Origin: Nocardioides sp.
GTDB lineage: Bacteria > Actinomycetota > Actinomycetes > Propionibacteriales > Nocardioidaceae
Reading direction: 5' to 3'
Length of the DNA stretch: 64,000 nt
NCBI GenBank assembly: GCA_049841015.1
Contig: JASGIN010000014.1
Span: forward strand, 517,148-581,147
Positions 15,315 through 33,997 of the stretch are shown here, piece by piece. Position numbers and translations under genes: made by a program. Positions within the stretch are counted from its first letter, which is position 1; each line of letters begins with the position of its first letter. The notes below the pieces were generated by a model. It saw nothing but the letters and a program-made list of their open reading frames with translations, was not told the DNA's origin and did not search any database.

Positions 15315-15404
15315 ACTCTAGGGGTCGGTACTTCGCAGCGTTTCGCACCCCTTTCGGCCACAAAAGGGTGCCGAATGCTGCGAAGTATCGACCCTCCCTA
15401 GAGT
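15315..15404. repeat. Palindromic REP-like element, copy 1, with a TAGAGT -10 box at each end facing outward
   Basis: Left arm actctaggggtcggtacttcgcagc is almost the exact reverse complement of right arm gctgcgaagtatcgaccctccctagagt. Core shared with the copies at 31410 and 32586. Confidence 0.85.
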
Positions 15405-29057: not shown

Positions 29058-31403
29058 ATGACGACCGACGGCAGCATCCCGGTGGCGCAGGAGCGCGCCG
29101 CCGAGCCTGCCCCGGTCCTGCGCCAGACCGACAAGGTCTCCTCCCGGGTGCCGTCGCCGCGGGCGGTGCGTAACCGCCTGGCCCGGATGGGTGGCGGGCG
29201 CAACCAGAACGAGCGCCCCGAGCTCGAGCCGCTGTTCCGGTCGATCCGGGCCAACCACCCGAAGGCCGACCTCGCGCTGATCGAGCGGGCCTATCGCACC
29301 GCCGAGCACCTGCACGGCACCCAGATGCGCAAGAGCGGTGACCGCTACATCACCCACCCGCTGGCGGTCACGACGATCCTGGCCGACATCGGCATGACGG
29401 AGCCGACGCTGGTCGCGGCCCTGCTGCACGACACGGTCGAGGACACGCCGTACACCCTCGACGAGCTGCGCTCCGACTTCGGCGACGAGGTCGCCCAGCT
29501 CGTCGACGGCGTCACCAAGCTCGACAAGGTGCAGTACGGCGAGACGGCGCAGGCCGAGACGATCCGGAAGATGATCGTGGCGATGGCCCGCGACATCCGG
29601 GTGCTGGTCATCAAGCTCGCCGACCGCCTGCACAACATGCGGACGGTCCGCTACGTCAAGCAGTCGACCCAGGAGCGGCAGGCCACCGAGTCGCTCGACG
29701 TCTATGCGCCGTTGGCCCATCGACTCGGCATGAACACGATCAAGTGGGAGCTGGAGGACCTCGCGTTCGCGACGTTGCACCCGAAGATCTACGACGAGAT
29801 CGTGCGCATGGTCGCCGAGCGCGCGCCGTCGCGCGACCAGTTCCTCGCCCAGGTCAAGGAGCAGGTCCAGCAGGATCTCAAGGACGCCAAGGTCAAGGCG
29901 GTGGTCACCGGGCGGCCCAAGCACTACTACTCGATCTACCAGAAGATGATCGTCGGCGGCCGCGAGTTCAGCGACATCTACGACCTGGTGGCGCTGCGGA
30001 TCCTGGTCGAGGAGGACCGCGACTGCTACTCCGCGCTCGGCGTGCTGCATGCGCGCTGGACGCCGGTGCTCGGGCGGTTCAAGGACTACGTCGCGACGCC
30101 GAAGTTCAACATGTACCAGTCGCTGCACACGACCGTGATCGGACCGCAGGGCAAGCCGGTCGAGATGCAGATCCGCACCCAGGCGATGCACCGTCGCGCC
30201 GAGTACGGCGTCGCGGCGCACTGGAAGTACAAGGAGAACCGCCGCAACGGCGTCGACACCGAGCGGCTCGGGGACCTGGAGGACATGAACTGGGTCCGCC
30301 AGCTCCTCGACTGGCAGAGCGAGGTCGAGGACCCGGGGGAGTTCCTCGAGTCACTGCGCTTCGAGATCAACCGCGCCGAGGTCTACGTCTTCACCCCGCG
30401 CGGCGACGTGATCGCGCTGCCGGTCGGGGCGACGCCGGTCGACTTCGCCTACGCGGTGCACACCGAGGTGGGCCACCACACGATCGGCGCCCGGGTGAAC
30501 GGGCGGCTGGTGCCGCTGGAGTCGACGCTCGACAACTCCGACGTGGTCGAGATCTTCACCTCGAAGGCGCCGACCGCCGGTCCGTCGCGGGACTGGCTCG
30601 GCTTCGTGAAGTCGCAGCGCGCGCGCTCGAAGATCAAGCAGTGGTTCACCAAGGAGCGGCGCGAGGAGGCGATCGAGCGCGGCAAGGACCAGATCGCCAA
30701 GCTCATGCGCAAGGAGGGCCAGTCCCTCAAGCGGGTCCTCTCGCACGAGTCGCTGACCCTCGCGGCCAACCACTTCCGCCTCGCGGACGTGTCGGCGCTG
30801 TACGCCGCCGTCGGCGAGGGCAACCTGAGCGCCCAGGCCGTCGTACGCCGGGTGATCGAGCTGCACGGCGGCGAGGCCGGTGCCCAGGAGGACCTCGCGG
30901 AGGCCGTCAGCATCACAGCCCCGCGCGCCCGGTCGAAGGTCTCGTCGTCGGCGGGTGACTCCGGGGTCATCGTCAAGGGCGCCCAGGACGTGTGGGTCAA
31001 GCTCGCCCGCTGCTGCACTCCGGTCCCCCCGGACGCGATCCTCGGCTTCGTGACGAAGGGCGGAGGTGTGTCGGTGCACCGGCGCGACTGCACCAACGCC
31101 GCCGAGCTCGAGCGGCAGCCCGAGCGGCTGCTGGAGGTCGAGTGGGCGCCCAACGTGCACTCGACGTTCCTGGTCAACATCCAGGTCGAGGCGATCGACC
31201 GCGCCCGGCTGCTGTCCGACATCACGATGGCGCTGTCCGACGCGCACGTGAACATCCTCAGCGCCACCCTCTCCACCACCCGCGACCGCGTGGCCAAGAG
31301 CCGCTTCACCTTCGAGATGGCCGAGGCCAAGCACCTCGACACCGTCCTCCGCGCCGTCCGCGGTGTCCCCGGCGTCTTCGACGCCTACCGCGTCACCCAG
31401 TAG
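29058..31403 (+). CDS. rel: Bifunctional (p)ppGpp synthetase/hydrolase Rel
   Basis: HD domain (LLHDTVED), [39 protein letters not shown] (CC...HRRDC) and ACT domains. Confidence 0.97.
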
Positions 31404-31409
31404 CGCATT

Positions 31410-31478
31410 CCGGATACTTCGCAGCGTTTCGCACGTTCCACCCGTGCATTTGGGTGCCTTTTGCTGCGAACTATCCGG
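31410..31478. repeat. Palindromic REP-like element, copy 2
   Basis: ccggatacttcgcagc ... gctgcgaactatccgg (one mismatch), with inner gcac/gtgc arms. Confidence 0.85.
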
Positions 31479-31583
31479 TAGGAAGAGCCGTGAACTCTCC
31501 ACAGGGAACGGGGTCGGGGAGGCTGTCCACAGGGCTGAGCGGAGCGTCGACGCGTCGAGTCTGGTGATGGCGATGCTCGGTGG

Positions 31584-32580
31584 GTGGAGGGGGAGTGGTC
31601 GCCGGTCTGCCAGATGCCCGGGGGTCTGGTCGCCCCGGTCCGCGTCGATCCGTCGGGAGTCACCGGACCGACCCGACGGCAGGCCTCAGGGCCCCGCTGG
31701 CGACGCACCTCCTCGGCGCGCTACGTCCCCAGTGATGTCGACGGCTCGTTGGTGGAGCAGCACATCCTCGAACAAGCCTCCCGTCTGCCCGGGTACGGCG
31801 CGATCACGGCTTGGGCGTCGCTGCGCTGGCAAGGGGCGGCCTACTTCGATGGGCGCGCGCAGCCCGGTGGCGAGCTCCTCCCCGTACCTCTGCGCATCGG
31901 TGAGCACATGCTGCGCGCGGACCCGCGCATCGTGATCAGCCGAGGCGGGCTCGCCAAGGATGACCGCCGCGTCGTCCATGGCGTCTCGTGCACCACCTGG
32001 CAGCGGGCGCTGTTCGACGAGATCGTCCGGCTCGGGTCGTTACGTCCCGGTGTGGTGGCGCGCGGACATGGTCTGGGCCGCCGGGATGGGCAGCTCCGCC
32101 GGCTTCTGGGACTACCTCGAACGCGTGCGTCCTCGCAACGGCGTCGTGCTCTGCAGGGAGGTCGTCAGATTGGCTCGCGAGACCAGCCGCTCTCCGCAAG
32201 AGGCGTGGATGCGGCTGTGCTGGATGTTGGATGCCGGGCTGCCGGAGCCACTCGGCAATGTGCCGGTGTTCGATCGACACGGTGAGCTGCTCGGCGTCCC
32301 AGATCTCCTCGACCCTGTCGCAGGCGTGGTCGGGGAGTACCAAGGGGCCATCCACCGGAACGTCGCTCGCCATCGCAGCGACATCGACCGTGAGGAGCGC
32401 TTCCGCTCCCATGGCCTGGAGTACTTCGAGGTCGTCGCCGGCCAGCTCTCCGACTTCCGGACAGCGACCCGCATGCGCGAGGTCCGGAGACGCGCGCGCT
32501 TCCTGGACCCGGACGAGCGCTGCTGGACCCTGGAGCAACCCGCCTGGTGGGTCGCTCGAGAAGCCCGGCGAGCCTCCTGA
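31584..32580 (+). pseudogene. AbiEi-like/DUF559-like PD-(D/E)xK nuclease family protein; +1 frameshift at about 32061, about 331 aa if corrected
   Basis: N-terminal GPTRRQASGPRWRRTS and GAITAWASLRWQG. C-terminal SPQEAWMRL, GLPEP, PDLLD...GEYQGAIH, REERF...GL, the Vsr/DUF559-like layout. The two ORFs join at VVA-ADM. Confidence 0.65.
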
Positions 32581-32585
32581 CGGGT

Positions 32586-32650
32586 GGATACTTCGCAGCG
32601 TTAGGCACCTGATCGCGGCCAAATGAGGTGCCAAATGCTGCGAAGTATCC
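32586..32650. repeat. Palindromic REP-like element, copy 3
   Basis: ggatacttcgcagc ... gctgcgaagtatcc perfect 14-bp arms, with inner ggcacc/ggtgcc. Confidence 0.88.
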
Positions 32651-32659
32651 GTCCCGGGC

Positions 32660-33886
32660 TCAGCTGTAGTCGGCGGAGGCGCGCTGGGCCATCTCGAGGA
32701 AGGCGCGGCGGGAGGCGAGGTTCTCCTCGAGGTCGGCGACCTTCTTCTGGTCACCGGCCGCGCGGGCCTTCTCCAGGTCTGCCTCGACCTTGCCGATGGC
32801 GTCGTGGAGCTTGGCCACCATGTCGTCGGCGCGCGCGGACTTCTCCGGGTCGGTGCGCCGCCACTTGTCCTCCTCGATGCTGCGGATCGCCTGCTCCACC
32901 GCGCGCATCCGGTCCTCGAGGGGGCGGATCTTCTCCCGGGGCACCTTGCCGATGGCGTCCCAGCGCTCGGCGATGTCGCGGATGGCTGCCTTGGCCGAGC
33001 CGACGTCGGTGACCGGGACCAGCGCCTCGGCCTCGACCAGCAGCTTCTCCTTGGCCTCGGCGTTCGCGGCGAACTCGCTGTCCTGCGCCGCCATCGCCTC
33101 GTCCCGCGCGCCGAAGAACGTGTCCTGGGCGGCGCGGAACCTGGTCCACAGCTCGTCCTCGACCTCGCGCGGCGCCGGACCCGCGGCCTTCCACTGCCGC
33201 ATCAGCTCGCGGTAGGAGCCGGACGTCGGCCCCCACTCGCGCGAGTTCGCCAGCGACTCGGCGTCCTTGACCAGTCGCTGCTTGACCACGCGGGCGCTCT
33301 CGCGCTTCTCGTTCTGCTCGGCGAAGTGCGTCTTGCGCCGCCGGGTGTACGACGTGCGCGCGGTCGAGAACCTGCGCCACAGCTGGTCGTCGGCGGACCG
33401 GTCGATGCGCGGGAGCGCCTTCCACTCGTCGAGGAGCTGGCGCAGCCGGTTGGCGCCGTTGCGCCAGTCGTTGCTCTCGGCGAGCTTCTCGGCCTCGGTG
33501 ACCAGTCGCTCCTTCTCCGACTTGGCCGCCGCGGACTTCTCCGCCCGCTCGGCGCGTCGGGCCTGGCGCTGCTGGGAGATGACCGGGAGCAGGGAGTCGA
33601 GTCTCCCGACCAGCCCGGTGAGGTCGCCGACGGCGTTCGCCTCGACGACCTGGGTGCGCAGACCGCGCACGGACTCGGTCGCCTCGTCGGGGGACAGCAC
33701 GGCCGCGGTCACCCGCTGCTCGAGCAGGTGCACGGTGCCGGCCAGCTCGTCGTACCTCTTGGCGAAGAAGGCCAGGGCGTCCTCGGGCGTGCCCTCGGGG
33801 TACTGCCCGACGGCCCGCTCGCCGTCGGGGACGCGCACGTAGACGGTCCCGTCCTCGGCGACGCGTCCCCACTCGCTCGTCGTCAC
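32660..33886 (-). CDS. DUF349 domain-containing protein
   Basis: SEWGRVAEDGTVYVR, three helical repeats of type KxxLxxEAExL...WKxxG...DxLWxRF. Usual position between rel and hisS. Confidence 0.9.
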   Translation of the reverse strand: MTTSEWGRVAEDGTVYVRVPDGERAVGQYPEGTPEDALAFFAKRYDELAGTVHLLEQRVTAAVLSPDEATESVRGLRTQVVEANAVGDLTGLVGRLDSLLPVISQQRQARRAERAEKSAAAKSEKERLVTEAEKLAESNDWRNGANRLRQLLDEWKALPRIDRSADDQLWRRFSTARTSYTRRRKTHFAEQNEKRESARVVKQRLVKDAESLANSREWGPTSGSYRELMRQWKAAGPAPREVEDELWTRFRAAQDTFFGARDEAMAAQDSEFAANAEAKEKLLVEAEALVPVTDVGSAKAAIRDIAERWDAIGKVPREKIRPLEDRMRAVEQAIRSIEEDKWRRTDPEKSARADDMVAKLHDAIGKVEADLEKARAAGDQKKVADLEENLASRRAFLEMAQRASADYS

Positions 33887-33997
33887 TGTGTCCTCTTCGG
33901 TCCGTCCTCGTCGCTGCGCCGACCCGGGCAACGCCCCATGCTAGGGCGCCGGAGCACCGATTCCATCACGGTGGTGCGCGGTCGATAGTCTGCCGTG

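What the first reader, a model, noticed from the sequence alone, without database searches (positions are those of the whole stretch)
31410..32650. Nuclease-like gene bracketed by palindromic repeats that also occur alone: candidate non-RAYT REP-mobilising unit
Seen: two same-orientation copies of a GGATACTTCGCAGC...GCTGCGAAGTATCC palindrome flank a single accessory gene between rel and DUF349. A third, solo copy sits 16 kb away. The gene has an AbiEi-like N-terminus and a Vsr/DUF559-like PD...ExxG..H C-terminus, with no HUH or DDE motif that I can see. Established: REP elements in proteobacteria flank and are spread by HUH RAYT transposases. Inference: an analogous REP-plus-enzyme unit built on a PD-(D/E)xK nuclease that may recognise or disperse these hairpins. 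The copy here is frameshifted as sequenced.
Basis: partly seen in the sequence, partly recalled or inferred. Interest (0 to 1): 0.7.

Follow-up and report, generated by a model that had tools for sequence, protein, structure and literature searches.

The report
Nuclease gene framed by its palindromes
A broken gene for a DNA-binding nuclease sits between two copies of a 65-base palindrome that is also scattered about 20 times through this Nocardioides-like genome; its sister genes, here and in related species, each sit between palindromes of their own, which points to an undescribed repeat-plus-enzyme partnership like REP/RAYT but built on an unrelated enzyme.

Summary
Two 65-nt palindromes (31412-31476, 32586-32650) bracket a gene with one frameshift, lying between rel and a DUF349 gene. 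A third copy is at 15326-15390, and the genome holds about 19-20 copies.

The gene is an AbiEi-like DNA-binding module fused to a Vsr/DUF559-type nuclease. The genome holds no HUH (Y1) transposase.

The layout is general:
- At least 6 of 9 paralogues in this genome are bracketed by their own palindrome family. Seven such families each have about 8-33 dispersed loci, mostly within 18 nt after a stop codon.
- 24 of 29 homologues from other genera and 59 of 64 from the same genus have matching flank palindromes.
- Close relatives have empty sites for the sister cassette and for one solo. For the window's own site, many relatives have a short, empty rel-DUF349 spacer.
- Three different family members, each with its own palindromes, occupy the same rel-DUF349 spacer in three species.
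- Repeat similarity rises with protein identity (Mantel p about 3e-4).
- In a test stated beforehand, one arm variant was abundant in 7 of 7 genomes whose gene carries it.

That the protein binds or cuts the palindromes is inferred, not shown. I found no description of the system in the literature I searched. This scan has noted the same system before on other DNA.

The parts
29058..31403 (+). rel (RelA/SpoT) gene; its stop codon lies 8 nt before the left palindrome. Context, not part of the unit.
   Evidence: Pfam HD_4, RelA_SpoT, TGS, ACT
31412..31476 (.). Left copy of the 65-nt family A palindrome: 14-nt outer arms, an inner GCACC/GGTGC pair and a variable centre.
31584..32060 (+). N-terminal piece of the broken gene (AbiEi-like DNA-binding module). 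The true start codon was not fixed; profile positions 5-161 are covered.
32055..32065 (+). Place of the single frame shift that splits the gene as sequenced.
   Evidence: The profile alignment is contiguous across the two frames. Not verified with reads.
32062..32580 (+). C-terminal piece of the broken gene (Vsr/DUF559-type nuclease domain with the motifs SPQE, PDLLD and GEYQG..H), ending at stop 32578-32580.
32586..32650 (.). Right copy of the family A palindrome, 5 nt after the gene's stop and 9 nt from the stop of the convergent DUF349 gene.
32660..33931 (-). DUF349 gene, convergent with rel. Context.
   Evidence: Pfam DUF349
15326..15390 (.). Solo family A palindrome between divergent GNAT-like and HIT-like genes. 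The relative G010 lacks it at the same site.

Best explanation
Window 31412-32650 is one inactivated copy of a cassette: palindrome, gene, palindrome. It is inserted into the short spacer between the convergent stop codons of rel and the DUF349 gene. The gene encodes an AbiEi-type DNA-binding module fused to a Vsr/DUF559-type nuclease.

It belongs to a large actinobacterial family. Each gene lineage is framed by its own roughly 60-66-nt palindrome, and the same palindrome variant is scattered about 8-33 times through the host genome, mostly just after stop codons.

Shown:
- the layout and its generality;
- that cassette and solos are insertions relative to relatives;
- that gene variant and repeat variant go together.

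Inferred:
- the protein binds as a dimer, through its AbiEi-like modules, to the two conserved arms;
- its nuclease domain nicks or cuts in or near the variable centre;
- break repair or copying then multiplies, homogenises or maintains the solo copies and moves the cassette.

The logic is that of REPIN/RAYT systems, but the chemistry must differ because there is no HUH transposase.
For: Within this genome:
- About 19-20 family A copies.
- Nine paralogues found with the family profile. At least six have the same palindrome on both flanks, each paralogue a different family.
- Only 21 of 5162 ORFs share 16 nt or more between their flanks. Four of these are paralogues and one is a shadow ORF overlapping a paralogue (Fisher p about 6e-9).
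- Seven flank families each have about 8-33 dispersed loci, while reversed-arm controls give about 0 at zero mismatches.
- The copies examined (five families) lie mostly -5 to +18 nt from a stop codon.

Other genomes:
- 24 of 29 loci from other genera and 59 of 64 from the genus have left-right flank similarity above the 99th percentile of mismatched locus pairs.
- Arms of the GGTAGTCC type occur in 102 of 151 genus genomes, with a reversed control of about 0.
- Three or more such palindromes occur in 63 of 124 genomes that have the gene subfamily and in 1 of 26 without it.

Co-divergence:
- Protein identity against repeat similarity gives Spearman 0.43; 0 of 3000 Mantel permutations reached this.
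- Test stated beforehand: the GTGAC arm variant was present 9-27 times in 7 of 7 genomes whose sampled gene carries it. Of six further genomes with 7 or more copies, four turned out to have a GTGAC-flanked gene.

Mobility:
- G012 has a 21-nt spacer where this genome has the sister cassette.
- G010 lacks the solo at 15326.
- The rel-DUF349 spacer is 2-31 nt in several relatives. In G009 and G011 it holds other family members with other palindromes (hhalign 98.1% and 95.8%).

Protein:
- E205, N224 and D239 are invariant, and E250, H256 and D265 nearly so, across 72 sequences that are 31-59% identical to the reference.
- Fold matches to Vsr-type nuclease domains.
Against: - No binding, cleavage or movement has been observed.
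- Co-divergence of a gene and its immediate flanks is expected from linkage alone. Only the match of the solos to the resident gene's variant goes beyond that, and related genomes are not independent samples.
- Family A persists (about 20 copies) although its gene is broken as sequenced.
- G173 has family A and GTGAC palindromes but no cognate gene was found (83% complete MAG). G220 has 11 palindromes of the superfamily and no gene at E 1e-40.
- Sub-family B2 has no gene of its own here.
- The centres of family A copies are unrelated and do not fold better than shuffles. Simple copy-and-paste does not explain this.
- In the window gene and its sister the acidic residue after the conserved Glu (D in 56 of 72 sequences) is Q or N.
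- A check reported by this scan on other DNA went against the repeat going with the gene.
Confidence: 0.6

Rival explanations
1. Only the cassette moves. The palindromes are its ends, and the solos are scars left when recombination between the two flanking copies deleted the gene, as with solo LTRs.
For: The whole palindrome-gene-palindrome unit is the inserted segment at two sites. Two flanking 65-nt copies can recombine. In G173 the two flanking copies are nearly identical, centre included, as after a recent event.
Against: There are about 8-33 solo loci per single gene. In all 8 genomes where two genes were sampled, the two carry different arm variants, so no genome shows two cassettes of one variant, which frequent cassette transposition would produce. 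Solos sit in very short spacers.
Confidence: 0.15
2. The gene is a homing-type selfish gene that uses pre-existing palindromes as landing sites. The palindromes are spread or kept by something else: an unknown enzyme, or host selection for them as 3' hairpins.
For: The nearest structural relative of the nuclease domain is a homing endonuclease. The same spacers are colonised repeatedly by different palindromes with or without a gene. Palindromes occur in genomes where no cognate gene was found (G173, G220).
Against: Homing into a cut palindrome should leave half-sites on each side, not two complete palindromes. No other candidate mobilising enzyme was seen: no Y1 transposase. Arm variants are genome-specific and match the resident gene down to about 22 nt.
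Confidence: 0.13
3. The protein is a transcription factor or DNA-structuring protein with a decayed nuclease domain. The palindromes are its operators, or host terminators and mRNA-stabilising hairpins. Nothing is mobile today.
For: AbiEi proteins autoregulate by binding inverted repeats (own knowledge, not tested here). The upstream palindrome lies 50-110 nt before the start codon. Copies sit just after stop codons and fold strongly, -26 to -45 kcal/mol. Both copies in this genome have Q or N at a usually acidic position.
Against: The catalytic residues are invariant or nearly so over wide divergence. Cassette and solos differ in presence between species at orthologous sites. Arm variants turn over quickly between species. 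Positions after stop codons are odd places for operators.
Confidence: 0.08
4. Chance: the palindromes are simply common in intergenic DNA and happen to lie on both sides of this accessory gene.
For: A few ordinary genes (a methyltransferase, GidB, TauE) also have a shared repeat on both flanks.
Against: The background rate is 21 of 5162 ORFs, against at least 6 of 9 paralogues, 24 of 29 loci and 59 of 64 loci elsewhere, each with its own family.
Confidence: 0.02

Closest known systems
REP/REPIN-RAYT systems (REPtrons) of Proteobacteria (own knowledge: Nunvar 2010; Bertels and Rainey 2011; Ton-Hoang 2012)
   Same: A usually single-copy gene sits between copies of its own palindromic repeat. Tens of solo copies of the same variant lie in extragenic DNA, mostly 3' of genes. 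Several gene-repeat pairs coexist in one genome. Gene and repeat diverge together.
   Different: The enzyme is not an HUH/Y1 transposase: none is in the genome. It is an AbiEi-like module plus a Vsr-type PD-(D/E)XK nuclease. The repeats are 60-66-nt units with conserved arms and, in this genome, a variable centre. The gene is not syntenic between species. The host is an actinobacterium.
Vsr/DUF559/MTES_1575 nuclease domains, and the EDxHD homing endonuclease I-Bth0305I (PDB 3r3p)
   Same: The fold and the motif order (E ... D ... E-x-D ... H ... D) agree. Foldseek probability is 0.92, with TM 0.66 over the 98-residue target. From memory, I-Bth0305I is a dimer that footprints about 60 bp, close to the length of these palindromes.
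   Different: The gene is free-standing in intergenic DNA, not inside an intron or intein. It is fused to an AbiEi-like module. It is associated with a dispersed repeat family. The window gene itself does not reach any Pfam threshold.
AbiEi antitoxins of type IV abiE toxin-antitoxin systems
   Same: The N-terminal roughly 190 residues match AbiEi models. AbiEi binds inverted repeats (own knowledge).
   Different: No AbiEii toxin gene is adjacent; the neighbours are rel and a DUF349 gene. The module is fused to a nuclease domain instead.
Integron gene cassettes with attC sites
   Same: One gene is delimited by imperfect palindromes that have conserved outer and inner boxes and a variable centre.
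   Different: There are no arrays. The cassette always carries the same gene family. The attC core motif is not present, and the copies are dispersed singly after stop codons. No integrase search was run.
MITEs and their parent IS elements
   Same: Short, non-coding elements with inverted-repeat ends, scattered in intergenic DNA, with a linked protein-coding relative.
   Different: There is no DDE or other known transposase. The gene is flanked by two whole palindromes rather than by one inverted-repeat pair. No target-site duplication was seen at the two junctions compared.

Membership tests
REP/REPIN-RAYT (REPtron) | The associated gene encodes an HUH Y1 transposase (Pfam Y1_Tnp, PF01797) | tested here: not met
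   No PF01797 match in the whole genome, while the control genomes ring. The gene is AbiEi-like plus Vsr-like.
REP/REPIN-RAYT (REPtron) | The gene is flanked by its cognate palindromic repeats | tested here: met
REP/REPIN-RAYT (REPtron) | The same repeat is dispersed in tens of extragenic copies | tested here: met
   About 19-20 family A copies, and about 8-33 loci for each of seven families.
Vsr/DUF559-type PD-(D/E)XK nuclease | Match to the Pfam DUF559 or MTES_1575 profile above the curated cut-off | tested here: inconclusive
   The window gene and its sister give no Pfam hit. Paralogue C16:308772, linked by the family profile at E 1.7e-24, passes both cut-offs.
Vsr/DUF559-type PD-(D/E)XK nuclease | Vsr-like fold with conserved acidic and histidine residues | tested here: met
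   AF2 model pLDDT 94.8. Matches to 3r3p (probability 0.92) and PvuRts1I. Invariant E205, N224, D239; E250, H256 and D265 at 69-71 of 72.
Vsr/DUF559-type PD-(D/E)XK nuclease | Nuclease activity | not testable with these tools
   Needs an enzyme assay.
Type IV toxin-antitoxin AbiE (AbiEi antitoxin) | AbiEi-type DNA-binding module | tested here: met
   PADLOC AbiEi models: E 2e-5 (sister), 0.005 (window piece), 1e-13 and 4e-12 (paralogues). Pfam AbiEi_4 at 33.5 bits in one paralogue.
Type IV toxin-antitoxin AbiE (AbiEi antitoxin) | Adjacent AbiEii nucleotidyltransferase toxin gene | tested here: not met
   The only neighbours are rel and a DUF349 gene. The sister cassette lies between a phosphofructokinase-like and an oxidoreductase-like gene.
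Homing endonuclease (EDxHD family) | Encoded within an intron or intein and targeting the empty allele | tested here: not met
   The gene is free-standing between convergent genes, with a complete palindrome on each side.
Integron cassette | Cassette arrays next to intI/attI; attC core sites | not tested
   Cassettes are single and dispersed. No integrase search was run.

The most novel reading that the evidence does not exclude
A widespread actinobacterial class of repeat-plus-enzyme elements in which a PD-(D/E)XK (Vsr-type) nuclease with an AbiEi-like DNA-binding module recognises its own roughly 65-bp palindrome. Through a cut-and-repair route unrelated to HUH single-strand transposition, it multiplies and homogenises the scattered copies. 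Arm specificity shifts quickly, so that several non-cross-reacting gene-repeat pairs coexist in one genome.
Probability: 0.4. Interest if true: 0.85.

Novelty: new variant of a known kind. Interest (0 to 1): 0.75.

Why it matters
REP-type repeats are among the most abundant non-coding elements of bacterial genomes, and only one kind of partner enzyme (RAYT) is known. If a second, unrelated enzyme family plays the same part, that would show the repeat-plus-caretaker arrangement evolved more than once.

It would also:
- explain much of the palindromic intergenic DNA of high-GC Actinobacteria; seven families here give on the order of 100-170 loci;
- give a function to a large set of 'hypothetical' and DUF559 proteins, 1282 clusters at 50% identity for this branch alone;
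- offer sequence-specific DNA-binding nucleases whose roughly 22-nt specificities diverge naturally;
- account for why DUF559 proteins appear among predicted inversion targets (PMC9881135).

Tried and rejected
- Rfam: no known RNA family in the window.
- Structured RNA or hairpin with covariation: the centre of family A pairs no better than shuffled columns and folds no better than shuffled centres. The conserved parts are therefore the arms, read more easily as protein sites than as a selected fold.
- Direct Pfam and NCBIfam hits for the window gene: none. The domain assignment had to go through the family profile, the paralogues, PADLOC and the structure model.
- The PDB sequence search gave only a weak PvuRts1I hit.
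- Co-divergence across genera: no correlation (Spearman -0.04), because repeats are unrecognisable below about 55% protein identity. It appears only within the genus.
- Close homologues of the window gene in 150 genus genomes at E 1e-35: none. The family A gene lineage therefore could not be followed, and the threshold was probably too strict.
- Target-site duplication: none seen at the window junctions or the sister cassette junctions.
- Plasmids and phages: no homologue.

Full report
**Observation**

The arm GGATACTTCGCAGC and its complement occur six times in the window, against 0.28 expected. They form three 65-nt palindromes at 15326-15390, 31412-31476 and 32586-32650.

The last two enclose about 1.1 kb between the stop of rel (29058-31403) and the stop of a convergent DUF349 gene (32660-33931, minus strand). 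The enclosed gene is read in two frames. A family profile aligns positions 5-161 to the first frame and 162-329 to the second without a gap, so there is a single frame shift near 32055-32065.

'Same orientation' is not decidable. The conserved parts are symmetric: 13-14-nt outer arms, a 5-nt linker drawn from the same small set on both sides, and an inner GCACC/GGTGC pair. The centres of the copies are unrelated.

**The genome and the repeat**

The window lies in a 4.42-Mb, 70-71% GC assembly. The closest protein hits are from Nocardioides.

A profile of the repeat finds about 19-20 copies. Fifteen of twenty lie within 12 nt after a stop codon, often between convergent genes. The centre neither pairs above shuffled columns nor folds better than shuffled centres. 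The arms alone give a strong hairpin. Rfam has no match.

**The protein**

The two pieces and an intact 350-aa sister (about 42% identical; contig C14 about 291.3-292.3 kb = L001:1779-2831, minus strand) give no Pfam or NCBIfam hit. The family is nevertheless large: 1640 proteins among the 8000 candidates scored in one search, and 1282 clusters at 50% identity in the other. All are 'hypothetical'.

An alignment of 72 members has invariant E205, N224 and D239, and nearly invariant E250, H256, D265 and R268, in the order typical of Vsr/DUF559 domains. The AlphaFold model is confident (pLDDT 94.8, pTM 0.92). Its C-terminal domain matches the Vsr-type catalytic domain of the homing endonuclease I-Bth0305I (probability 0.92) and PvuRts1I.

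The family profile finds nine paralogues in this genome. Among the more typical ones, one passes the Pfam cut-offs for MTES_1575 and DUF559, and another passes AbiEi_4. PADLOC AbiEi models cover residues 30-194 of the sister (E 2e-5) and hit the paralogues down to 1e-13.

There is no AbiEii neighbour, and no Y1/HUH transposase anywhere in the genome.

**Is the layout general?**

In this genome:
- The sister gene is framed by a different 63-64-nt palindrome with GGTAGTCCCTGAC arms, which has 17 or more copies.
- At least six of nine paralogues have the same palindrome on both flanks, each its own family.
- Among 5162 ORFs only 21 share 16 nt or more between their flanks. Four of these are paralogues and one is a shadow ORF overlapping a paralogue. 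The rest include ordinary genes.
- Seven flank families each have about 8-33 dispersed loci, with reversed-arm controls near zero.

Elsewhere:
- The family is in 76 of 81 genomes sampled from the taxonomic family, with 1-11 matches per genome that has it.
- It is patchy in the rest of the phylum: 19 of 121 genomes.
- No homologue of the sister protein was found on plasmids or phages.
- Left and right flanks resemble each other above the 99th percentile of mismatched locus pairs in 24 of 29 loci from other genera and in 59 of 64 loci from the genus.

**Mobility**

The rel-DUF349 spacer is only 2-31 nt in several relatives. It holds unrelated palindromes in others, and other inserts in yet others.

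In G009 and G011 the same spacer holds a different member of the same protein superfamily (hhalign 98.1% and 95.8%), each with its own flanking palindromes. Three family members have therefore entered the same spacer independently.

For the sister cassette, G012 (87% identical in the neighbouring gene) has a 21-nt spacer between the two convergent stop codons where this genome has palindrome-gene-palindrome. G012's own homologue lies elsewhere. G010 lacks the solo at 15326, and G012 has another palindrome there. No target-site duplication was seen.

**Does the repeat go with the gene?**

- Family A is confined to this genome (15 exact-pattern copies) and G173 (2 copies) among 151 genus genomes.
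- The wider GGTAGTCC superfamily is in 102 of 151 genomes.
- Three or more copies occur in 63 of 124 genomes with the gene subfamily and in 1 of 26 without it.
- Within the genus, repeat similarity rises steadily with protein identity: mean score 11 below 50% identity and 34 above 70%. Spearman is 0.43, and 0 of 3000 permutations reached it. Across genera the signal is gone.
- I then stated a test before running it. The seven genomes whose sampled gene is flanked by the GTGAC arm variant should hold that variant in numbers, and most others should not. All seven have 9-27 copies. Only six of the other 143 genus genomes have seven or more.
- Of those six, four proved to have a second gene with a GTGAC-type palindrome: on both sides in G012, G129 (one arm slightly altered) and G198, on one side in G015. 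In G173 none was found (83% complete), and G243 was not looked at.
- In the listed genomes the solos match the resident gene's flanks over about 22 nt, and these sub-variants differ between genomes.
- In all eight genomes with two sampled genes, the two carry different variants.

Kin are not independent, so the p-values overstate the case.

**Mechanism**

Shown: the anatomy, the association, and insertion polymorphism.

Inferred: AbiEi-type modules bind inverted repeats (own knowledge). A Vsr-type homing enzyme is known, from memory, to footprint about 60 bp as a dimer. The conserved arms are therefore the likely binding sites and the variable centre the likely place of cutting. Repeated cutting and repair there would also account for the unrelated centres.

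How copies multiply is unknown.

Against the reading:
- Family A survives with a broken gene.
- Some genomes have palindromes but no cognate gene was found.
- Sub-family B2 has no gene of its own here.
- Both local proteins have Q or N at a usually acidic position.

**Comparison and novelty**

The logic is that of REPIN/RAYT systems, but the defining HUH enzyme is absent, so this is not a member of that class.

I found no paper that links DUF559 or AbiEi proteins with flanking palindromes. One survey lists DUF559 proteins as enriched among predicted inversion targets without comment (PMC9881135).

This scan has reported the same layout many times on other DNA: 110 notes in 102 or more genomes. 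One of those notes mentions a check that went against the repeat going with the gene. In this genus my test went the other way.

Noticed in passing
L024, L025, L032-L034, L036, L038, L039, L041 (rel-DUF349 spacers of relatives): The spacer after rel is a hot spot. Different species hold different solo palindromes, arrays of half-sites (G009), other genes (a SulP-like transporter, an oxidoreductase) or nothing.
   Followed up: partly
window 15326-15390; L096, L097: The solo between the GNAT-like and HIT-like genes is absent in G010, and G012 has an unrelated palindrome there. It sits in a divergent promoter region, unlike most copies, which follow stop codons.
   Followed up: partly
G000 contigs C4, C10, C11 (for example C4:67881, C10:138517, C11:138961): Sub-family B2 shares the outer 16 nt of the sister gene's palindrome but has a different inner arm. 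No gene of its own was found in this genome.
   Followed up: no
G000 C8:383797-384438 (L080) and C16:153968-155308 (L081): Another repeat, with up to 38 nt shared, flanks a methyltransferase gene and an RTX-repeat gene. No partner gene was identified.
   Followed up: no
window 32330-32345; L001 (sister gene): In the motif E-x-D-G..H the Asp (D in 56 of 72 family members) is Gln in the window gene and Asn in the sister gene. These may be binding-proficient but catalytically altered variants.
   Followed up: partly
G126 palindromes listed: In G126 the centre of the palindrome is also conserved among about 22 copies, unlike the unrelated centres of family A here. Families may differ in age or in how copies arise.
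   Followed up: no
G000 C13:639302 and 640486, and 20 or more other loci: One paralogue is framed by a perfect 24-nt palindrome (GAAACCCCGCGT plus its complement). Its arms occur about 60 times, often in clusters of 2-5. This is much shorter than the 60-66-nt type.
   Followed up: partly
arms of the sister family and of most genus variants: The outer arm begins G-GTAG. From memory, classical REPs also start with GTAG. It is only four bases and family A lacks it, so this may be coincidence.
   Followed up: no
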